DNA of 5,152 nucleotides from a plasmid (GCF_055900595.2 NZ_JBVWEU010000009.1), one strand, 5' to 3'; shown: positions 1 to 5,152, counted from the stretch's first letter. Notes: generated from the letters alone by a model not told the origin. Numbers and translations: made by a program.

Positions 1-45
1 TGTGCATAATATAACCTTGTCTGCCTGCGTGTGAGACCGTAAAAT

Positions 46-110
46 CATCCCTGATTAATTCAGGGATGCGCACTTAGACGTTTCTCTCCTTCGTCGAGAA
101 ACAGTGCGCT
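46..110 (-). other. oriT: origin of transfer (oriT), RSF1010/R1162-like MOBQ nic region
   Basis: Read on the minus strand (plus 102 down to 47) the sequence is GTTTCTC-GACGAAGGA-GAGAAAC-GTC-TAAGTGCGC-ATCCCTG. That is a 7-bp inverted repeat (plus 80-86 / 96-102), 3 nt, then TAAGTGCGC (plus 68-76). This matches the nic core I recall for RSF1010 oriT (GTTTCTCGAAGAGAAACCGGTAAGTG|CGCCCT), including the 3-nt distance between repeat and TAAGTG. A second perfect 9-bp inverted repeat (46-54 catccctga / 60-68 tcagggatg, 5-nt spacer) lies just 3' of the predicted nick. Predicted nick is on the minus strand between plus coordinates 71 and 70. The site is 22 bp upstream of mobA. Confidence 0.6.
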
Positions 111-132
111 CCTGCGGAGGGCTTAACGGCAG

Positions 133-1227
133 ATGGCAAGCTACCATTGCACAGTTAAAACTGGAGCAAAAGGCGTAGCCTTAAAACATGCTGATTACAT
201 TTCCAGATCCGGCGAATATAAAAACTATAAATCGCGGGAGGATCTGGAATTTTCTTCATCCGGTAACATGCCATCATGGGCGAAGAAAAATCCCGCAGAA
301 CTGTGGAAAGCTGCTGATGAATTTGAACGAAAAAACGGGACGGCATACCGTGAAATTGAGATCGCATTACCGCGAGAACTGACACGTGAACAACGGATAG
401 AGCTTGTTGAAGATTTCGTGCAAAAGGAACTTGGTGATCGCCATGCCTATCAGTACGCGATCCACAATCCACCAGGTGCAATTGACGGGAAGGAACAGCC
501 ACACGCGCATATCATGTTTTGCGAACGGATTAATGATGGTATTGAACGCGATCCGCAGCAGTTTTTTAAACGTGCCAACAGCAAATCACCAGAGCGGGGA
601 GGCGCAAAAAAGGCACGCTTTGGCGAGACACAACAAGAGCGAAAATCAGCCCTGGTTGCGCTACGCTCTCACTGGGCTGATGTGCAGAATGAACACCTTG
701 CGCGACACGGCCACCAGTCGCGCGTTGATCATCGTTCGCTGAAAGAACAGGGTATCAAGCGTACGCCGGAGGTGCATCTTGGTCCCGTTCGTGTTGCTGT
801 TATGAACGCTGATCAGGTTTGTGCAATTCTGGCATGGAGAAATGCGGAACGGGAGAAGCTGGAGGCCGAGAAGGAACGGGACAGCATCATTGACCTTAAA
901 ACGACCTTGAAGGAAGCGTTAGCTGAACGGGATAACATGCCACCAACCCTGGATGAGCTTGGGGCAGAATTGAAAGCGTTTGTTGAAAGCTCGTTTGATG
1001 AACTCAATGAGGTAATGCAGCTTAATTCATTGATTGACGGTGCGCTGGACACAATGATGAAGCAATTCCAGGTGGAAGAGGAGCGGAAGCTGCAACAGGA
1101 ACGACTAATTCAGGCTGCGCGAGATGAAGCCGAAAAACAAAGAGAGCTGGAGAGGGAAAGAGTGCGCCGGCGTGCGTATTCTTCACCAGCACCATCACGT
1201 TCACGCGATTATGGTATGAGCCGTTAA
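133..1227 (+). CDS. mobA: mobilization relaxase MobA (MobA/MobL family, MOBQ)
   Basis: 364-aa ORF, ATG at 133 with GGAGG at 116-120. The N-terminus MASYHCTVKTGAKGVALKHADYISRSGEY has the conserved Tyr-containing motif of MobA/MobL relaxases (compare RSF1010 MobA), and a downstream His motif (QPHAHIMF) fits the metal-binding histidine cluster. The C-terminal half is charged and coiled-coil-like (EKLEAEKER, QRELERERVRRR). It sits directly downstream of the oriT-like site. G+C is near half, typical of an enterobacterial backbone. Confidence 0.88.
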   Translation: MASYHCTVKTGAKGVALKHADYISRSGEYKNYKSREDLEFSSSGNMPSWAKKNPAELWKAADEFERKNGTAYREIEIALPRELTREQRIELVEDFVQKELGDRHAYQYAIHNPPGAIDGKEQPHAHIMFCERINDGIERDPQQFFKRANSKSPERGGAKKARFGETQQERKSALVALRSHWADVQNEHLARHGHQSRVDHRSLKEQGIKRTPEVHLGPVRVAVMNADQVCAILAWRNAEREKLEAEKERDSIIDLKTTLKEALAERDNMPPTLDELGAELKAFVESSFDELNEVMQLNSLIDGALDTMMKQFQVEEERKLQQERLIQAARDEAEKQRELERERVRRRAYSSPAPSRSRDYGMSR

Positions 1228-1248
1228 GCACTGGAGGTTTTTTATTTT

Positions 1249-1965
1249 ATGCAATTGGATGAACATTCAAGAAAAATTGCTGCCCTTGTTGCGTATAATG
1301 AAAAGCAAATAAAAGAAATAAACAGGATAATTACTCTGCTTAATGAAAGAGTGAATGATTTAAATACCTTTACAGATACTCTTGAACGTGAAGGTAAAGT
1401 TGTATCTGGAATTTCTTATTCCTTGAGAGATAGTGTGTCTCATGTTGATTTTTATCTTAATAAAGGAATGGAAGAAGTATCCTGTAAATTACAGAAATCT
1501 GTCTCAGACACACTAACATCATTACTCCGTGAAAAATTATCTTTCACACTTAATGATGTAAGGCAAGAGTGGACTGATTTTGAAGAGCAAACAAGTAAAG
1601 AGATAAAGGAATCATTAAAGCAGACGACCAGAGATGCTGAAGTTGCGACAGGTATAATTAGAAAAATAATGGAAAAGTATACAGTAACAAGGATAGTCGA
1701 AAAGGTAATTGTGTTACTTGTGTTATTTTTATTACTAATGATAGCACCTGGTTTCTATGCTGAATATCTCAAAATGAATATCGGTTCTCTAATGGAAGAA
1801 CAGAAAAAACATGAATCTATGTTAAAAGAGTGGAAGGAAAAAGCACCATTGGCAGAGTTCTCTAAGTGTGGAGAGTATAGGGAAGCATGTGTGTTAGTTG
1901 ATGATAAAAGCGGATATTATTATGATGAACAAACTCCAAATAAAAAATATGCCATACTGAAATAG
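1249..1965 (+). CDS. hypothetical bitopic membrane protein (N-terminal coiled-coil domain, one transmembrane helix, small Cys-containing C-terminal domain); AT-rich cargo gene
   Basis: 238-aa ORF. ATG at 1249 is preceded by GGAGG at 1233-1237 and starts 21 nt after the mobA stop codon (TAA 1225-1227), with no obvious promoter in between. The N-terminal ~145 aa are rich in K/E with heptad-like spacing (EKQIKEINRIITLLNERVNDLN). One strongly hydrophobic segment (IVEKVIVLLVLFLLLMIAPGFYAEYL) follows, then a ~70-aa tail with two Cys (SKCGEYREAC) and a YYYDE motif. Codon usage is visibly AT-rich, about one-third G+C by eye, unlike mobA and rep. I recognise no family. Confidence 0.6.
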   Translation: MQLDEHSRKIAALVAYNEKQIKEINRIITLLNERVNDLNTFTDTLEREGKVVSGISYSLRDSVSHVDFYLNKGMEEVSCKLQKSVSDTLTSLLREKLSFTLNDVRQEWTDFEEQTSKEIKESLKQTTRDAEVATGIIRKIMEKYTVTRIVEKVIVLLVLFLLLMIAPGFYAEYLKMNIGSLMEEQKKHESMLKEWKEKAPLAEFSKCGEYREACVLVDDKSGYYYDEQTPNKKYAILK

Positions 1966-2120
1966 TGTTAAGTAACTCATTCCGCCTTATGACTAAGGCT
2001 GCATGAGTATAAAAACTAAAAATAAATGCCCGTACCTAAAAAATGGAACTACATATACTTATGTACCTTGAGAATGACGGAGTTAATTTATCCTTTGTTG
2101 TCAAATTTTTGACCCAAACA

Positions 2121-2160
2121 GGGGCCGCTTGGTAGGGTATCTGAACTCCAATCGGTCCCC
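2121..2160 (-). terminator. candidate intrinsic terminator / GC-rich imperfect hairpin downstream of the minus-strand cargo gene
   Basis: On the minus strand, just after the stop codon (complement of 2172-2174), the sequence GGGGACCGATTGG-(15 nt)-CCAAGCGGCCCC forms an imperfect ~11-bp stem (one bulge, one mismatch) followed by UGUUUGGGUC. It is a GC-rich island in an otherwise AT-rich intergenic region between two convergent genes. The T-tract is weak, so this is only a candidate. Confidence 0.3.
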
Positions 2161-2171
2161 TCATAATGCCT

Positions 2172-2969
2172 TTATGTATTGAATTCTAATACAGGGTCGA
2201 ATTGAAACATGTCATTAAAATAACATAGTGCTGGATTACTAAATGTAATTGGTTCTGCTTCGGTATTTAGGTAATCCAACCATTCATAATAATCTTTTTT
2301 AAATTGCGTGTATGTTTCTTTTGTCATTGGTTTGAATTGATAACCAAAAGTTGTATGAAATCTATATGTGTCATGGTTTTTATGTTTCACTCCTGTTATT
2401 TCAGCAACGGAATTTCTAAAGTTGATTAGTATTTCTTTATCTGAGTTGCTTGCAGGAATTAAAGGTATAATAAAGGCTGGTTGTTTATTATCGTCCCACT
2501 CTGGAGGTAGCGATGGTGTAGATTTTAGATCTACCTTCATTGTAACAGGTTTTTCAAATCCTATTTGTTTATTTTTAAGTGTATTTGCAATTAACTTTGT
2601 CGCTTCCTCCATGCTTATATTCGTGGGGGTGTTATAAGGCCAAGGATTTTTTCTATCGCCACTAATTAAAGAAATGATAGTCATGTGATAAGAGTTTGGA
2701 GGTAATAACACAATGCAATCACCAAAATCTCGTTGAATTCGAACCTGAATATTAAGCATTGCTTTAAATAAATTGCTGTCTTTATCTGTATGGCAGATTA
2801 CGGAACATCCTTTATATTGTGCAACCTTTCCATTGCGATAAAATTTTGCGCCCTTATCAAGACCGTTGTTTTGTGCTATTTCGCATCGATTATTTTCAGC
2901 AAAAACAGTATTAGATGTTATTGCTGCTGTTACTAATGCGGAAGATTTTATAAATGTTCTTCTGTCCAT
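2172..2969 (-). CDS. Tat-signal (twin-arginine) exported protein with 2H phosphoesterase (LigT-like) motifs; AT-rich cargo gene
   Basis: The minus-strand ORF track starts at 3029, but the preferred start is the ATG at 2969 (complement of 2967-2969), preceded by AAGGAA 7 nt upstream. It gives MDRRTFIKSSALVTAAITSNTVFA-ENN: a twin-arginine motif (RRxFIK), a hydrophobic h-region and an A-x-A-like cleavage site (VFA), i.e. a Tat signal peptide. The mature part carries two H-x-T-x motifs flanked by hydrophobics, about 110 aa apart: LLPPNSYHMTIISL and YRFHTTFGYQF. This is the signature of the 2H phosphoesterase superfamily, and the first motif resembles the PPENLH-hydrophobic-T-L segment I recall in LigT. 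G+C is about one-third by eye. Confidence 0.6.
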   Translation of the reverse strand: MDRRTFIKSSALVTAAITSNTVFAENNRCEIAQNNGLDKGAKFYRNGKVAQYKGCSVICHTDKDSNLFKAMLNIQVRIQRDFGDCIVLLPPNSYHMTIISLISGDRKNPWPYNTPTNISMEEATKLIANTLKNKQIGFEKPVTMKVDLKSTPSLPPEWDDNKQPAFIIPLIPASNSDKEILINFRNSVAEITGVKHKNHDTYRFHTTFGYQFKPMTKETYTQFKKDYYEWLDYLNTEAEPITFSNPALCYFNDMFQFDPVLEFNT

Positions 2970-3014
2970 AACAGATTCCTTATTAGTGAATGTGAGTTTC
3001 TTCTTCATTAGAAG

Positions 3015-3042
3015 AATGTAAAAAAACATAAATAAAAGTCAA
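3015..3042 (-). promoter_or_regulatory. candidate sigma70 promoter for the Tat/2H-like gene
   Basis: On the minus strand: TTGACT (complement of 3037-3042), a 16-nt AT-rich spacer, then TACATT (complement of 3015-3020). This lies about 45 nt upstream of the ATG at 2969. The alternative in-frame ATGs at 3029 and 3008 would fall inside or abut this promoter and lack a Shine-Dalgarno sequence. Confidence 0.3.
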
Positions 3043-3237
3043 ACGGTAAAAAACGCCTAGGGGCTTTCACGAAACAAACGGATTTGTACGCTGAACTTTG
3101 ACGTCACCCCGTTTGGGGGAAACTCATCAGAACGCTATATCAAATTCCCGCAAAGGACTTCTCATCCAGGGGAGAAAATTTGTCATTTTGACCCGTTCGC
3201 CGTTCTGTACGGTCGAAACCGATCGCGCATCGCTTTC

Positions 3238-3253
3238 GTGCATAGTTATGCAA
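3238..3253. promoter_or_regulatory. candidate ARG-box-like palindrome (accessory sequence of the cer-like site)
   Basis: gTGCATagttATGCAa is an inverted repeat (TGCAT / ATGCA, 4-bp AT-rich centre) resembling the ARG box half-sites TGAAT / ATTCA. It lies about 100-115 bp upstream of the XerC/XerD core, the distance at which ArgR binds in cer. Confidence 0.3.
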
Positions 3254-3353
3254 CGCGCTAAAAACGATTCTGACGCATTTTTTATGTTTACCCTGGTGTT
3301 TCCTTGTCTTTTTACGTTTTTTACGTCAGAAAGCGACTGAGGGCGTTTTAAGG

Positions 3354-3381
3354 GGTACGTACAAGAGGAGTTATGGTAAAT
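3354..3381 (+). other. cer-like XerC/XerD multimer resolution site (core)
   Basis: GGTACGTACAA-GAGGAG-TTATGGTAAAT. The left arm differs by one base from the ColE1 cer XerC arm as I recall it (GGTGCGTACAA), and the right arm is identical to the cer XerD arm (TTATGGTAAAT). The central region is 6 bp (cer has 8; dif and psi have 6). About 250 bp of non-coding sequence upstream (3100-3353) fits the accessory region. Confidence 0.6.
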
Positions 3382-3402
3382 GGATCGGGTTTGCGGGAAG
3401 GA

Positions 3403-3431
3403 TCGACAGGATTTGCCGTTGGGTGTAGTGT
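3403..3431 (+). promoter_or_regulatory. candidate rep promoter
   Basis: TCGACA (3403-3408), 17-bp spacer, TAGTGT (3426-3431). This would start a roughly 100-nt leader before the rep ATG at 3538, in line with the long antisense-controlled leader of ColE2-type rep mRNAs. Confidence 0.3.
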
Positions 3432-3439
3432 AAGCGACT

Positions 3440-3555
3440 GAAAAACAAACGCCCCTGAAATCATGTCCAGATCCGGCAAGATTCAACATGAAATACAGGG
3501 GCGAGGTCGGTCGATAACCTGGAAGGAATCGTAACACATGAGCGCCGCGCTTCAA
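3440..3555 (-). ncRNA. candidate antisense RNA (ColE2 RNAI-like copy-number control RNA) complementary to the rep leader
   Basis: A long interrupted hairpin in the rep leader: gcccctg (3451-3457) pairs with caggggc (3496-3502), and the inner arms tcatgt (3461-3466) pair with acatga (3486-3491). On the minus strand the stem is followed directly by GUUUGUUUUUC (complement of about 3440-3450), the shape of an intrinsic terminator for a minus-strand transcript. ColE2-type replicons are known to control Rep translation with a roughly 115-nt antisense RNA against the leader. The 5' end and promoter are not resolved, so the boundaries are approximate. Confidence 0.4.
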
Positions 3556-4473
3556 TACTTCGACGAAAATTTACCCCACCGTCCCTATCACACGGATGAT
3601 CTCGCTTTTGGTCTTCGCATCTCCGGCAAAGGGCGTGCGCTTCTTGCGCGGTACATACAGCAGAACCAGCCTCATGCGCAGTTCTGGCTGGTTTTTGACG
3701 TTGACCGCGAGGGGGCAGCGATTGACTGGAGTGACCGGAACGCTCCCGCGCCGAACATCACCGTAAAAAATCCTGTGAACGGTCATGCTCACCTGCTCTA
3801 CGCGCTCAATATCGCCGTGAGAACCGCGCCGGACAGCTCGGTTAAGGCGCTGAAATACGCCGCTGCGATTGAACGTTCGCTGTGTGAGAAACTTTGTGCT
3901 GATGTGAACTACAGCGGACTGATTTGCAAAAATCCGTTCCACCTGGAATGGCAGGTGATGGAGTGGCGCGAGGAAGCCTATACCCTCGATGAACTGGCAG
4001 ATTATCTCGATTTGAGCGCCTCAGCGCGTCGTAGCATCGATAAACATTACGGGATGGGGCGAAACTGCCACCTGTTCGAAATGACGCGCAAATGGGCTTA
4101 CAGGGCGATTCGTCAGGGCTGGCCAGCATTCTCACAGTGGCTTGATGCCGTGATTCAGCGTGTCGAAATGTACAACGCATCGCTTCCCGTTCCGCTTTCT
4201 CCGGCTGAATGTCGGGCTATTGGCAGGAGCATTGCGAAATACACGCACAGGAACTTCACGCCGGAAACTTTCGCACAGTATGTGGCTGATACGCACACAC
4301 CAGAAATACAGGCCAAGAGAGGCCGGAAAGGTGGTATCGCTAAAGGCGAAGCCTACGATGACAAGCGTTTCATGGCGCTATGTATGCTGGATAATGGATA
4401 TTCTCAGAAAGCTATTGCGGCGATGCTGAATGTACATCGTAATACGATCCGTAATTGGGCAATGCACAAATAG
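3538..4473 (+). CDS. rep: ColE2-type replication initiator Rep (plasmid-specific primase-like initiator)
   Basis: 311-aa ORF, ATG at 3538 with AAGGA at 3523-3527. The N-terminus MSAALQYFDENLPHRPYHTDDLAFGLRISGKGRALLARYIQQNQPHAQFWLVFDVDREGAAIDWSDRNAPAPNITVKNP closely matches what I recall of ColE2-P9 Rep (MSAVLQRFREKLPHKPY...QNQPHA...DWSDRN.PAPNITVKNP). The C-terminus has a helix-turn-helix-like segment (YSQKAIAAMLNVHRNTIRNW). The origin motif follows directly after the stop codon, as in ColE2. G+C is near or above half. Confidence 0.9.
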   Translation: MSAALQYFDENLPHRPYHTDDLAFGLRISGKGRALLARYIQQNQPHAQFWLVFDVDREGAAIDWSDRNAPAPNITVKNPVNGHAHLLYALNIAVRTAPDSSVKALKYAAAIERSLCEKLCADVNYSGLICKNPFHLEWQVMEWREEAYTLDELADYLDLSASARRSIDKHYGMGRNCHLFEMTRKWAYRAIRQGWPAFSQWLDAVIQRVEMYNASLPVPLSPAECRAIGRSIAKYTHRNFTPETFAQYVADTHTPEIQAKRGRKGGIAKGEAYDDKRFMALCMLDNGYSQKAIAAMLNVHRNTIRNWAMHK

Positions 4474-4515
4474 CCTATATCAGATAACAGCGCCTTTTCG
4501 GCGTCTTTTTGAGCA
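4474..4515 (+). other. ori: ColE2-type origin of replication (Rep binding and priming site)
   Basis: cctatATCAGATAACAGCGCCttttcGGCGTCTTTTTGAGCAg starts right after the rep stop codon (TAG 4471-4473). It matches the conserved ColE2/ColE3 ori core as I recall it (CCTTATCAGATAACAGCGCCCTTTTGGCGTCTTTTTGAGCA) with a few substitutions. Confidence 0.7.
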
Positions 4516-4569
4516 GCGGGCTTTCCGGCGGTTTTCTCCTTTCAGCCCAGCAATGGTGCGGCTTACCGT

Positions 4570-4640
4570 ATGATTGAGGTGGTCGTGCTCGCCGCAGTCT
4601 CATGACCGAGCGTAGCGAGCGAATGAGCGAGGAAGCACCA
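4570..4640. other. candidate single-strand initiation / primosome assembly site (ColE1 pas-like homology)
   Basis: GCTCGCCGCAGtctcatGACCGAGCGtAGCGAGcgaaTGAGCGAGGAAGC (about 4587-4636) is strikingly similar to the pBR322/ColE1 segment GCTCGCCGCAGccgaacGACCGAGCGcAGCGAGtcagTGAGCGAGGAAGC. In ColE1 this lies downstream of ori in the region of the PriA-dependent primosome assembly (n-prime) sites. Here it sits about 100 bp downstream of the ColE2-type ori, where lagging-strand priming would be needed. Confidence 0.4.
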
Positions 4641-4666
4641 GGGAACCGGAACGTGAACGGAGGCTC

Positions 4667-5113
4667 TTACGCACTGTCTTTGGTTAGTAGCTTCTTCCCG
4701 CGTCTTTCCCATTCCTGCCATTTTGGATGGTTGCGCGGTAGCTCTGCGATTCCTGCGAGTGCGCCTACCAGTTCGGCAGCACTACACTTTGGTTTTCCGG
4801 TTTTGCTGTCCACCAGTCCTGCCACAATCATGAGGCCTGCGGCCTTGTAGAGTTCATGATCCCGCGCTTTTCGTTCCGCCCTTGCGGCTGCCTTCCGTTC
4901 TGCCGCTATGATTGCCGTTACCCTGGCTTTTGCTGCGGCTGCTTTCTCTGCGGTTTTTTCTGCCCGTATCAGTGCGGATAACGTTTTTTCATCCGTCGTT
5001 GTTCGGTTTTTTTTCTCTGCCAGTAACACAAGTAATCTCTGCTGCTCTGACGGTGATTTCAGTCCGTTGATGTAGGCAATTTTTGCACTTAACCACTCTT
5101 CACGATTTGTCAT
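4667..5113 (-). CDS. mobC: MobC-like mobilization accessory protein (divergent from mobA across oriT if the molecule is circular)
   Basis: 148-aa minus-strand ORF. ATG is the complement of 5111-5113, with GAGGT 5 nt upstream. The protein is Ala/Lys/Arg/Glu-rich and helical (EKTAEKAAAAKARVTAIIAAERKAAARAERKARDHELYKAAGLMIVAGL, ELVGALAGIAELPRNHP), like the small oriT-binding accessory proteins found beside MOBQ relaxases. Its start is 39 bp from the window end; joining the end to the start puts it divergent from mobA with oriT between them, as mobC/oriT/mobA is arranged in RSF1010-type plasmids. The family call rests on position and composition, not on a recognised motif. Confidence 0.5.
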   Translation of the reverse strand: MTNREEWLSAKIAYINGLKSPSEQQRLLVLLAEKKNRTTTDEKTLSALIRAEKTAEKAAAAKARVTAIIAAERKAAARAERKARDHELYKAAGLMIVAGLVDSKTGKPKCSAAELVGALAGIAELPRNHPKWQEWERRGKKLLTKDSA

Positions 5114-5152
5114 TCTTACCTCTGCACTTTTGCCGTTAATGTGAGTTGTTAT

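What the first reader, a model, noticed from the sequence alone, without database searches (positions are those of the whole stretch)
1..5152. Window is probably a whole circular plasmid with a mosaic backbone (MOBQ transfer module, ColE2 replicon, ColE1-like cer and pas elements)
The MobC-like gene starts 39 bp before the window end and the oriT-like site begins 46 bp after the window start. Joining the ends recreates the divergent mobC/oriT/mobA arrangement typical of RSF1010-type mobilization regions. The rest of the window holds a full ColE2-type replicon and a resolution site, so all functions of a small mobilizable plasmid are present in 5.15 kb. Combining an RSF1010-like relaxase system with a ColE2-type Rep and ColE1-like resolution and priming sequences points to modular reassortment.
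Basis: inference. Interest (0 to 1): 0.4.

Follow-up and report, generated by a model that had tools for sequence, protein, structure and literature searches.

The report
Complete small ColE2-type mobilizable plasmid
The window is one whole 5,152-bp circular plasmid of a common, already described E. coli/Salmonella type (ColE2-like replication, RSF1010-like mobilization), so it is real but ordinary apart from an uncharacterised two-gene cargo.

Summary
Seven independent public contigs (two NCBI assemblies, five SRA runs) are 99.96-99.98% identical to the window. Each is a different circular permutation. Each carries a terminal overlap (30, 77 or 249 bp) that trims to exactly 5,152 bp, and each runs unbroken across the window's end-to-start junction. 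Joining the ends restores a 171-bp oriT region between a leftward accessory gene and rightward mobA.

The "mosaic of RSF1010 + ColE2 + ColE1 parts" reading is only partly right. The cer-like site, rep, ori and the ColE1-like primosome site form one block. That block occurs in the same order in the classical ColE2-related plasmid ColE9-J (81-92% nt identity). ColE2-type replicons with MOBQ mobilization are a published family (Col156; MOBQ4, MOBQ12).

Real reassortment exists, but inside this family:
- the mob module differs (MobA ~31% identical to ColE9-J, 58% to the MOBQ12 reference pCE10B);
- the Rep C-terminal patch comes from a different relative than the rest of the backbone;
- the MobA C-terminus differs from relatives;
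- a LysE gene was replaced by an AT-rich DUF1868 phosphoesterase gene.

The "MobC-like" protein belongs to Pfam TraD, not MobC. This is a new member of a known kind, of low interest.

The parts
5114..5152 (.). Left part of the 171-bp accessory-gene/mobA intergenic (oriT) region. It becomes contiguous with 1-132 only when the ends are joined.
   Evidence: the junction is contiguous in relatives and in seven circularly permuted contigs.
1..132 (.). Right part of the oriT region. It holds weak divergent sigma-70-like promoter matches (+17..45 toward mobA; -35..6 toward the accessory gene, whose transcript would have to cross the junction).
   Evidence: Promoter matches are 9/12 and not more frequent than in shuffles, so they are weak. 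One search gives the structure.
46..108 (-). oriT core: hairpin 46-68 and hairpin 69-108 (inner inverted repeat 80-86/96-102). The MOBQ nick-region core TAAGTGCGC reads on the minus strand at 76->68. The predicted nic is on the minus strand between 69 and 68.
   Evidence: Fold z = -5.5. TAAGTGCGC is invariant in the window, pVR50E, ColE9-J and an IncQ1 RSF1010-type plasmid. The order IR -> nic -> accessory gene is the same as in IncQ1. Window 64-126 is 92-95% identical to hundreds of other small plasmids while flanking mobA is 69%. The nic position is inferred, not mapped.
133..1227 (+). mobA, a 364-aa MOBQ relaxase. Its relaxase domain is about aa 1-220. Its C-terminal part from about aa 241 differs from the 516-aa MobA of pBS512_5-type relatives.
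   Evidence: Pfam MobA_MobL 1.7e-38. PDB 2NS6 (R1162/RSF1010 MobA) 3.6e-37, 43% identity. Y22, E74/E76 and H111/H124/H126 align with the catalytic Y25, E74/E76 and H112/H120/H122 (residues as given in PMC6856555). Similarity to pBS512_5 ends at 854.
1249..1965 (+). orf238, a lineage-restricted AT-rich gene (32.6% GC). It is predicted to be all-helical with one hydrophobic segment and a small Cys-containing C-terminal part. Function unknown.
   Evidence: pLDDT 55.6; 11 relatives in 1.84 billion representatives. A weak AbiZ match (1.5e-4) is treated as unreliable.
2006..2107 (-). Remnant of the 3' end of a LysE-family transporter gene, with an in-frame stop. It marks the left edge of the cargo replacement (homology to pSCU-106-7 ends at 2104).
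   Evidence: tblastn of the pSCU-106-7 LysE, aa 157-190, 65% identity.
2172..2969 (-). DUF1868 / 2H-phosphoesterase gene (265 aa from MDRRTFIK). It has a twin-arginine-type signal peptide, 32.4% GC, and both HxT motifs.
   Evidence: Pfam 2H-phosphodiest 8.5e-21; TAT_signal 18.9 bits, below the cut-off. PDB 2FSQ 1.5e-13. The nearest relatives are 76% nt / 72% aa, on IncF plasmids. The exact protein occurs on 95 contigs from E. coli/Enterobacteriaceae.
3239..3381 (+). cer-like multimer resolution site. It has a palindromic ArgR-box-like TGCATAGTTATGCA at 3239-3252, a XerC arm GGTACGTACAA at 3354-3364, a 6-bp central region GAGGAG and a XerD arm TTATGGTAAAT at 3371-3381.
   Evidence: The ARG-box-to-core spacing is 115 bp against 113 bp in ColE1. 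The region as a whole is 90% identical to ColE9-J but only about 49% to ColE1 cer, the same as shuffled sequence (45 +/- 3.6%).
3441..3503 (-). Stem-loop (3450-3503) followed by a U-run on the minus strand. This is the terminator hairpin of the ColE2-type antisense RNAI; on the plus strand it is its target in the rep 5' leader. The 5' end of RNAI was not determined.
   Evidence: Sub-threshold Rfam PK-repBA match at 3449-3571, 33.9 bits against gathering 45. Fold (z = -2.3). Alignment: the upper stem and loop allele is shared with pSCU-106-7 and differs from ColE9-J, pVR50E and pBS512_5. Function is taken from the literature quoted in PMC6856555.
3538..4473 (+). rep, a ColE2-type initiator/primase of 311 aa.
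   Evidence: It is 93-97% aa identical to ColE9-J and pVR50E over aa 1-258. The C-terminal part (window 4258-4457) is 98-100% nt identical to pBS512_5 / O22:H8 p5 but 59-82% to pSCU-106-7.
4474..4505 (+). ColE2-type origin immediately 3' of rep. The core CCTATATCAGATAACAGCGCC (4474-4494) overlaps the rep terminator-like hairpin at 4490-4504.
   Evidence: The 21-nt core is identical in ColE9-J and pVR50E. The 32-bp ori downstream of rep is described in PMC6856555. The exact limits and the primer start (AGA at 4482-4484) rest on my own knowledge of ColE2-P9.
4587..4636 (+). ColE1-ssiA-like primosome assembly (n'-pas) sequence, 105-155 nt downstream of the ori on the strand that would be displaced.
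   Evidence: It is 88% identical to ColE1 1311-1360, which lies about 110-160 nt downstream of the ColE1 RNA/DNA switch. It is also present in ColE9-J and pVR50E. The hairpin is not unusually stable, but neither is ColE1's. The role of ssiA is described in PMC3167613.
4667..5113 (-). Relaxosome accessory gene (148 aa), TraD family, divergent from mobA.
   Evidence: Pfam TraD PF06412 2.8e-8, 33.9 bits above the cut-off of 22.3; no MobC match. It is 33% identical to the protein in the same position in pVR50E/pCE10B. There is no detectable similarity to the ColE9-J MobC.

Best explanation
The window is the complete monomer of a 5,152-bp circular, cryptic, mobilizable plasmid of Enterobacteriaceae. 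It is ColE2-related (PlasmidFinder type Col156) and carries a MOBQ1-like mobilization module.

Replication (inferred from homology). Rep binds the origin just downstream of its own gene and makes a short primer there. Leading-strand synthesis runs rightward. The displaced strand exposes the ColE1-ssiA-like site about 105-155 nt further on, where the PriA primosome would start lagging-strand synthesis. Rep synthesis is held down by an antisense RNAI against the stem-loop in the rep leader.

Multimer resolution (inferred). Multimers are resolved by host XerCD with ArgR/PepA at the cer-like site upstream of rep.

Transfer (inferred). MobA, helped by the TraD-family accessory protein, nicks the minus strand at TAAGTGCG|C in the oriT that spans the window's ends. 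A co-resident conjugative plasmid then exports the strand, accessory gene first and mobA last.

History. The plasmid is a recombinant within its own family. It has a pSCU-106-7-like backbone. It carries a Rep C-terminal (origin-specificity) patch of the pBS512_5 / O22:H8 p5 type. Most of an ancestral LysE gene was replaced by an AT-rich, Tat-signal DUF1868 2H-phosphoesterase gene.

What is shown here: circularity, gene content, homologies and the breakpoints. What is inferred: every biochemical step.
For: Circularity:
- Seven contigs have overlaps of 249, 77, 30, 30, 30, 30 and 30 bp, a unique length of 5,152 bp, different permutations and 1-2 mismatches.
- NCBI contigs of exactly 5,152 bp exist.
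- The junction is contiguous in pSCU-106-7 and in 87 PLSDB records.
- The window has no terminal overlap of its own.

Replicon:
- Pfam and PDB matches.
- Block 3158-4313 is 92-93% identical, and ori plus pas 81-88% identical, to ColE9-J and pVR50E.
- RNAI hairpin.

cer-like site.

Mobilization:
- Relaxase 43% identical to R1162 MobA, with the catalytic residues aligned.
- oriT structure and the invariant TAAGTGCGC, oriented as in IncQ1.

Family context:
- PMC6856555: ColE2-like Rep + MOBQ, divergent mobC/mobA, oriT between them, cer-like site, Col156.
- PMC4270462: cryptic ~5.2-kb MOBQ12 plasmids, with pCE10B as reference.

Recombinant history: the 100-bp identity table, the breakpoints and the LysE remnant.

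Hosts: E. coli and Salmonella.
Against: - Nothing was tested functionally.
- The source assembly of the window itself is not visible, so reads, depth and flanks could not be checked.
- Related sequences can be embedded in larger molecules. L004 is an 11.7-kb contig in which window 404-4775 is joined to a MOBQ4-type mob, an IS91-like gene and a Rep_3 gene. pSX5G-122k holds an integrated LysE-type relative.
- RNAI's promoter and 5' end were not found at consensus level.
- The nic strand is assigned by analogy only. A weaker nick-like sequence, AGTGCGCTCCT, also lies on the plus strand at 103-113.
- The pas hairpin is not statistically unusual.
Confidence: 0.93

Rival explanations
1. The window is a freshly assembled chimera of modules taken from three unrelated plasmid archetypes: RSF1010 mob, the ColE2 replicon, and ColE1 cer and pas.
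For: Each element does have its best-known model in a different archetype. MobA is 43% identical to R1162 MobA. The Xer core differs by 1 base from ColE1 cer. The pas is 88% identical to ColE1.
Against: - cer-like site, rep, ori and pas are one collinear block shared with ColE9-J and pVR50E.
- Outside the 28-bp core and the ARG box, the cer region is no more similar to ColE1 than shuffled sequence.
- ColE2-P9 is itself listed as carrying a MOBQ-type module (PMC3832669).
- The architecture is a published family (PMC6856555).
- The whole backbone is shared at 89-100% identity with about 90-130 PLSDB plasmids.
Confidence: 0.04
2. The window is a segment of a larger replicon (a cointegrate or an integrated copy) that merely happens to have the length of a monomer.
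For: Relatives do occur inside larger molecules: L004 and pSX5G-122k. The source assembly cannot be inspected.
Against: - The window length equals, to the base, the unique length of seven circular contigs from independent samples.
- NCBI holds 5,152-bp contigs.
- Both ends fall at adjacent bases of one intergenic region.
- There is no foreign sequence at either end.
Confidence: 0.03

Closest known systems
pSCU-106-7 (NZ_CP053241, 5,237 bp; Col156, MOBQ) and similar LysE-carrying plasmids
   Same: It has the same gene order. Identity is 97-100% over mobA, orf238, the accessory gene, oriT and most of rep. It carries the same RNAI stem-loop allele.
   Different: Its cargo is an intact LysE gene where the window has the DUF1868 gene (2105-3171 has no match). 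The Rep C-terminal patch 4258-4457 is only 59-82% identical. The cer accessory region is 72-87% identical.
pBS512_5 of Shigella boydii (NC_010659), the 5,114-bp S. sonnei plasmids, and E. coli O22:H8 p5 (NZ_CP067428)
   Same: They have the same backbone (TraD-family gene, oriT, mobA, ColE2-type rep). Window 4290-4680 (Rep C-terminus, ori, pas) is 99-100% identical.
   Different: MobA is 516 aa, and similarity ends at window 854. The cargo is different. They carry the other RNAI allele. mobA is about 92% identical rather than 100%.
ColE9-J / MOBQ42 ColE2-like colicin plasmids (PMC6856555)
   Same: They share the replicon block: cer-like site, RNAI target, rep, ori and pas, at 81-92% nt identity. 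They have a divergent accessory gene and mobA with oriT in between, and the TAAGTGCGC nick core.
   Different: MobA is only about 31% identical. The accessory protein is not detectably related. A colicin operon sits where the window has orf238 plus DUF1868.
pCE10B / pVR50E, cryptic ~5.16-kb MOBQ12 plasmids (PMC4270462)
   Same: The ColE2-type replicon is 93% nt identical, and Rep is 97% aa identical over 258 aa. The oriT core is 92-95% identical. They have a TraD-like accessory protein (33% identity) and are of similar size.
   Different: MobA is 58% identical over the relaxase domain. The downstream genes and the Rep C-terminus differ.
RSF1010/R1162 (IncQ1) mobilization system
   Same: The relaxase fold and catalytic residues match. 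The oriT has an inverted repeat followed by TAAGTGCG|C, then a second inverted repeat. The order mobA <- IR - nic -> accessory gene is the same.
   Different: The window's MobA has no fused primase domain. No MobC-family protein is present, and no overlapping mobB was found. The replicon is unrelated.
ColE1 cer and ssiA
   Same: The Xer core arms, an ARG box 113-115 bp upstream, and a 50-nt pas core with the same spacing from the origin and the same orientation.
   Different: The central region is 6 bp rather than 8 bp. The accessory sequences are not detectably homologous. The replication mechanism is otherwise unrelated: a Rep primase rather than RNAII.

Membership tests
ColE2-related (Col156) replicons | Rep protein homologous to ColE2-P9 Rep (Pfam PF03090 + PF08708, with a C-terminal DNA-binding domain) | tested here: met
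   (3VW4, 1.2e-41). Rep is 93-97% identical to ColE9-J and pVR50E.
ColE2-related (Col156) replicons | Short origin immediately downstream of rep | tested here: met
   The core at 4474-4494 is identical to the sequence at the same position in ColE9-J and pVR50E. The position is as described in PMC6856555.
ColE2-related (Col156) replicons | Antisense RNAI against the rep 5' leader | tested here: inconclusive
   A conserved stem-loop with a minus-strand U-run is at 3441-3503. No promoter or 5' end was identified.
ColE2-related (Col156) replicons | Rep-made primer and DNA polymerase I dependence | not testable with these tools
   This needs in vitro priming or a polA host test.
MOBQ relaxase systems (RSF1010 type, MOBQ1) | Relaxase with a motif I Tyr, motif II acidic residues and a motif III histidine triad | tested here: met
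   Y22, E74/E76 and H111/H124/H126 align to the catalytic residues of 2NS6.
MOBQ relaxase systems (RSF1010 type, MOBQ1) | oriT with an inverted repeat followed by the nick core TAAGTGCGCCCT | tested here: met
   The first 9 nt, TAAGTGCGC, match exactly on the minus strand at 76->68, 3 nt after the inverted repeat. The orientation is as in IncQ1. The 3' CCCT is replaced by ATCC. Consensus from PMC3832669.
MOBQ relaxase systems (RSF1010 type, MOBQ1) | MobC-family accessory protein | tested here: not met
   There is no Pfam MobC match at E <= 10. The protein is Pfam TraD.
MOBQ relaxase systems (RSF1010 type, MOBQ1) | Relaxase fused to a primase domain (RSF1010 MobA/RepB') | tested here: not met
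   MobA is 364 aa. Its only domains are MobA_MobL and Relaxase.
MOBQ4 (MOBQ41/MOBQ42; PMC6856555) | Relaxase N-terminal domain clustering with ColE9-J / pE2022_4 (about 84% mean identity within the family) | tested here: not met
   It is about 31% identical to ColE9-J MobA, and the accessory protein is unrelated.
MOBQ12 (reference pCE10B; PMC4270462) | Relaxase clustering with pCE10B MobA | tested here: inconclusive
   It is 58% identical over 217 aa to WP_001331297, the MobA of pCE10B and pVR50E. No phylogeny was built and the clade limits are not known to me.
cer-type Xer multimer resolution sites | XerC arm, 6-8 bp central region, XerD arm | tested here: met
   3354-3381, with 1 mismatch in the arms and a 6-bp centre; 0 of 200 shuffles match.
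cer-type Xer multimer resolution sites | ArgR box about 110 bp upstream of the core | tested here: met
   The palindrome TGCATAGTTATGCA lies 115 bp upstream (113 bp in ColE1) and aligns with the ColE1 ARG box.
cer-type Xer multimer resolution sites | Accessory sequences homologous to ColE1 cer | tested here: not met
   Identity is 49%, against 45 +/- 3.6% for shuffled sequence.
cer-type Xer multimer resolution sites | XerCD/ArgR/PepA-dependent resolution of dimers | not testable with these tools
   This needs dimer-resolution assays in xerC, argR and pepA mutants.
PriA-dependent primosome assembly sites (ColE1 ssiA / n'-pas) | Sequence homology to the ColE1 site, downstream of the origin on the displaced strand | tested here: met
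   88% identity over 50 nt, in the same orientation and at about the same distance from the origin.
PriA-dependent primosome assembly sites (ColE1 ssiA / n'-pas) | PriA-dependent priming on single-stranded DNA | not testable with these tools
   The fold z-score is near 0 for both the window and ColE1, so folding tells nothing.

The most novel reading that the evidence does not exclude
The AT-rich pair orf238 (a lineage-restricted membrane-anchored helical protein) and the Tat-exported DUF1868 2H-phosphoesterase sits where classical ColE2 plasmids carry their colicin operon. It recurs unchanged in well over a hundred E. coli and Salmonella samples. It might be a selected functional module of a new kind, for example a periplasmic enzyme acting on cyclic or 2',3'-phosphate nucleotides in competition, signalling or defence, rather than inert cargo.
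Probability: 0.1. Interest if true: 0.45.

Novelty: new member of a known kind. Interest (0 to 1): 0.1.

Why it matters
It matters little beyond bookkeeping. It confirms that the window can be annotated as a complete Col156/ColE2-type MOBQ plasmid, and it gives a clean, base-level example of how these small plasmids exchange specificity patches, mob modules and cargo. Only two points carry open biology. One is the unknown function of the widespread orf238 and Tat-signal DUF1868 cargo. The other is that this relaxase clade, with its TraD-family accessory protein, is abundant (exact MobA on at least 1,000 contigs) but apparently unstudied.

Tried and rejected
- Rfam at permissive threshold gave only a sub-threshold PK-repBA match on the rep-leader hairpin and a chance-level trpB match.
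- The promoter and terminator scan found no more sites than in shuffles, so no promoter is claimed firmly. RNAI's promoter was not found.
- Folding of the pas sequence was uninformative, with z about 0 for ColE1's own site as well.
- RNAalifold on five rep-leader hairpins mis-registered the two alleles because of an indel, so its pair counts were not used.
- blastn found no ColE1 cer match. A MAFFT alignment with a shuffle control showed that only the core, the ARG box and the spacing are shared.
- The nick consensus with 3 mismatches is not rarer than chance on its own. The argument rests on the exact 9-mer, its position next to the inverted repeat, and conservation.
- RSF1010 under NC_001740 or M28829 is not in the collections. 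An IncQ1 plasmid found with the oriT sequence was used instead.
- Papers PMC1347323 and PMC197111 (ColE2 ori anatomy; the eleven-replicon comparison) are not held. No held paper contains the ori sequence.
- orf238: the AlphaFold model is poor (pLDDT 55.6). Only lineage relatives were found. The PADLOC AbiZ match at 1.5e-4 lies on a coiled-coil stretch and was not trusted. PHROGs gave nothing useful.
- MOBQ4 membership was considered first, from the literature, and rejected after direct comparison with ColE9-J.

Full report
**What is in the window.** The 5,152-bp window has five substantial ORFs.
- mobA, 133-1227 (+): Pfam MobA_MobL, 1.7e-38.
- orf238, 1249-1965 (+): no family.
- A DUF1868 / 2H-phosphoesterase gene, 2172-2969 (-): the ORF is open to 3029, but the ATG at 2969 has an AAGGA ribosome-binding site and puts a twin-arginine signal, MDRRTFIK, at the N-terminus.
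- rep, 3538-4473 (+): Pfam Replicase 8.7e-44, plus PriCT_1 and HTH.
- A 148-aa gene, 4667-5113 (-): Pfam TraD.

GC content splits the window. The backbone is 45-58% GC. orf238 and DUF1868 are 32-33% GC.

**Circularity.**
- The window has no terminal overlap of its own.
- In the closest PLSDB relative, pSCU-106-7 (NZ_CP053241; Col156, MOBQ), window 4450-5152 aligns to 2122-2824 and window 1-2104 to 2825-4948. The last and first bases of the window are therefore neighbours there.
- A 700-bp query made by joining the window's end to its start is held in one piece (at least 80%) by 87 PLSDB records.
- Looking up the exact DUF1868 protein returned seven contigs of the same plasmid from independent sources. 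These are NCBI GCA_040716535.1 and GCA_002475975.1, and Logan assemblies of SRR12693875, SRR15479220, SRR20705320, SRR25118677 and SRR6111707.
- Each of the seven has a terminal direct overlap (249, 77 or 30 bp, the signature that assemblers leave on circles). Each trims to exactly 5,152 bp. Each differs from the window by 1-2 bases and starts at a different point. Each aligns in one piece through the 5152/1 junction of a doubled window.
- NCBI also holds contigs of exactly 5,152 bp. The proteins are recorded from E. coli and Salmonella enterica.

The window is one complete monomer. The source assembly itself could not be inspected.

**Mobilization module.**
- Joining the ends gives a 171-bp region between the divergent accessory gene and mobA.
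- MobA is 43% identical to the R1162/RSF1010 relaxase domain (PDB 2NS6, 3.6e-37). Y22, E74/E76 and H111/H124/H126 align with the catalytic residues (residue roles as listed in PMC6856555).
- The intergenic DNA folds into two hairpins, 46-68 and 69-108 (z = -5.5).
- On the minus strand, the inner inverted repeat is followed after 3 nt by TAAGTGCGC. These are the first nine bases of the MOBQ nick consensus TAAGTGCGCCCT (consensus quoted in PMC3832669).
- This 9-mer is invariant in the window, pVR50E, ColE9-J and an IncQ1 plasmid.
- In the IncQ1 plasmid the order is mobA/mobB <- IR - nick core -> mobC. The window has the same order, so I predict nicking of the minus strand between 69 and 68. This is an inference.
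- The oriT core, window 64-126, is 92-95% identical to hundreds of other small plasmids, whereas the adjoining mobA is 69%. That difference argues for selection on the site.
- The accessory protein is in Pfam TraD (33.9 bits, cut-off 22.3) and has no MobC match at E <= 10. 'MobC-like' therefore holds for position and presumed role, not for family.

**Which MOBQ clade.** The literature describes ColE2-like (Col156) plasmids with MOBQ relaxases, divergent mobC/mobA, a 178-bp oriT between them and a cer-like site as family MOBQ42, with ColE9-J as exemplar (PMC6856555). Direct comparison excludes membership: MobA is about 31% identical to that of ColE9-J, and the accessory proteins are unrelated. 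The cryptic ~5.2-kb MOBQ12 plasmids (reference pCE10B; PMC4270462) are closer. pCE10B and pVR50E share one MobA, 58% identical to the window's over 217 aa, and a weakly TraD-like accessory protein at 33% identity. About 130 PLSDB records carry a near-full-length relative of the window's MobA. The exact MobA sequence is on at least 1,000 contigs.

**Replicon, cer and pas.**
- The window's Rep matches the ColE2-P9 Rep DNA-binding domain (3VW4, 1.2e-41).
- Window 3158-4313 is 92-93% identical to ColE9-J and pVR50E. Window 4467-4672 is 81-88% identical.
- This one block contains five elements, in order:
  1. The cer-like site. It has a XerC arm GGTACGTACAA, a 6-bp centre and a XerD arm TTATGGTAAAT at 3354-3381 (0 of 200 shuffles match). 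An ArgR-box-like palindrome lies 115 bp upstream, against 113 bp in ColE1.
  2. The rep-leader stem-loop, 3450-3503. On the minus strand it is followed by a U-run, as expected for the antisense RNAI terminator.
  3. rep.
  4. The origin core CCTATATCAGATAACAGCGCC directly after the stop codon, identical in all three plasmids.
  5. A 50-nt sequence 88% identical to ColE1. It lies 105-155 nt past the origin. The ColE1 copy lies about 110-160 nt past the RNA/DNA switch, where ssiA (n'-pas) is (role of ssiA in PMC3167613).
- Outside the core and the ARG box, the cer region is no closer to ColE1 cer than shuffled sequence: 49% against 45 +/- 3.6%.
- So cer-like and pas-like elements are resident parts of the ColE2-family replicon, not ColE1 imports. 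This agrees with statements that Xer-type sites are frequent in ColE2-like plasmids (PMC2831885, PMC6856555).

**Where the mosaic really is.** A 100-bp identity table against five relatives, together with the breakpoints, shows the following.
- The window equals pSCU-106-7 (97-100%) at 3558-4257 and from 4458 through the junction to 1230.
- At 4258-4457 (the Rep C-terminus) it equals pBS512_5 / O22:H8 p5 (98-100%; 4290-4680 is 100% identical to NZ_CP067428). pSCU-106-7 drops to 59-82% there.
- The RNAI upper stem and loop allele follows pSCU-106-7. On the antisense strand the loop reads UUGCCG, instead of the UUGGCG of ColE9-J, pVR50E and pBS512_5.
- Similarity to pBS512_5-type mobA ends at 854. 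Those plasmids encode a 516-aa MobA with a different C-terminus.
- Nearly the same replicon is joined to three different MOBQ modules in the window, pVR50E and ColE9-J.

Exchange of functional parts among ColE2-related replicons is, to my knowledge, the conclusion of Hiraga et al. 1994. That paper is not held, so I could not check it here.

**Cargo.**
- Window 2105-3171 has no counterpart in the small relatives, which carry a LysE-family gene there.
- The window keeps the last ~34 codons of that gene (2006-2107), with an internal stop. The DUF1868 gene therefore replaced most of LysE.
- The DUF1868 protein matches Atu0111 (PDB 2FSQ, 1.5e-13) and keeps both HxT motifs.
- Its nearest relatives are 72% aa identical and sit on IncF plasmids, next to rop, pemIK and a microcin B17 cluster.
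- orf238 is confined to this plasmid lineage, and its predicted structure is of low confidence.
- No function can be assigned to either gene.

**Verdict.** The mosaic interpretation needs rewording. The plasmid has the standard architecture of a described family and is a recombinant within that family. No complete record in PLSDB or RefSeq E. coli matches at least 80% of the window. Near-identical draft contigs are numerous, however. This is a new member of a known kind, of low interest.

Noticed in passing
L004 (GCA_024996025.1 contig ABHZXF010000059.1, 11,671 bp), positions 3342-7713: Window 404-4775 (99.98% identical) is embedded in a larger contig. There its mobA 5' end, oriT and accessory-gene 5' end are replaced by a MOBQ4-type (ColE9-J-like, 85% nt) mob region, an IS91-like transposase gene and a Rep_3 gene. 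This is either a real cointegrate/hybrid with a MOBQ41-type plasmid or an assembly chimera.
   Followed up: partly
L017 (NZ_MZ367885.1, pSX5G-122k, record 76,500-85,400): A LysE-type relative of this plasmid is integrated in a 122-kb IncF plasmid. It includes the TraD-family gene, oriT (99.6% over the 700-bp junction query), mobA interrupted by a Tn3-family transposon plus an ABC gene, an orf238 homologue and LysE.
   Followed up: partly
window 3463-3492: The upper stem and loop of the rep-leader hairpin exists in two alleles, each self-complementary. The window and pSCU-106-7 have CATGT...ACATG with loop ATCCGGCAAGAT. ColE9-J, pVR50E and pBS512_5 have CGTG...CACG with loop ATCCGCCAAGA(C/T). 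On the antisense strand this changes UUGGCG to UUGCCG, probably a different RNAI incompatibility specificity.
   Followed up: partly
window 855-1227: The MobA C-terminal third (a coiled-coil-like, charged region) is shared only with pSCU-106-7-type plasmids. pBS512_5-type relatives have a longer, unrelated C-terminus (516 aa), so the relaxase itself is a domain mosaic with a breakpoint near codon 241.
   Followed up: partly
window 2172-2969 (-) and L016 3991-4791: The DUF1868 2H-phosphoesterase carries a twin-arginine-type signal (Pfam TAT_signal 18.9 bits, below the cut-off). A 72%-identical paralogue sits on IncFIA plasmids between parM/stability genes and rop-pemIK-CAAX protease-microcin B17 genes. 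A periplasmic 2H enzyme on plasmids has no obvious known role.
   Followed up: partly
window 1249-1965 (+): orf238 follows mobA after 21 bp, with a GGAGG ribosome-binding site. It is AT-rich, found almost only in this plasmid lineage, and gave a weak PADLOC AbiZ match (1.5e-4) over a coiled-coil stretch. The best distant relatives are about 30% identical over aa 113-238.
   Followed up: partly
window 3158-3357: The accessory part of the cer-like site is the most variable backbone stretch: 70-90% identity to every relative examined, with ColE9-J the best. The neighbouring rep is 97-100% identical to pSCU-106-7, which suggests a further recombination patch next to the cargo boundary at 3172.
   Followed up: no
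window 1306-1412 (-): A match to the Rfam trpB ncRNA motif at 29.3 bits (gathering 59, E = 0.43) inside AT-rich orf238. It is treated as chance.
   Followed up: no
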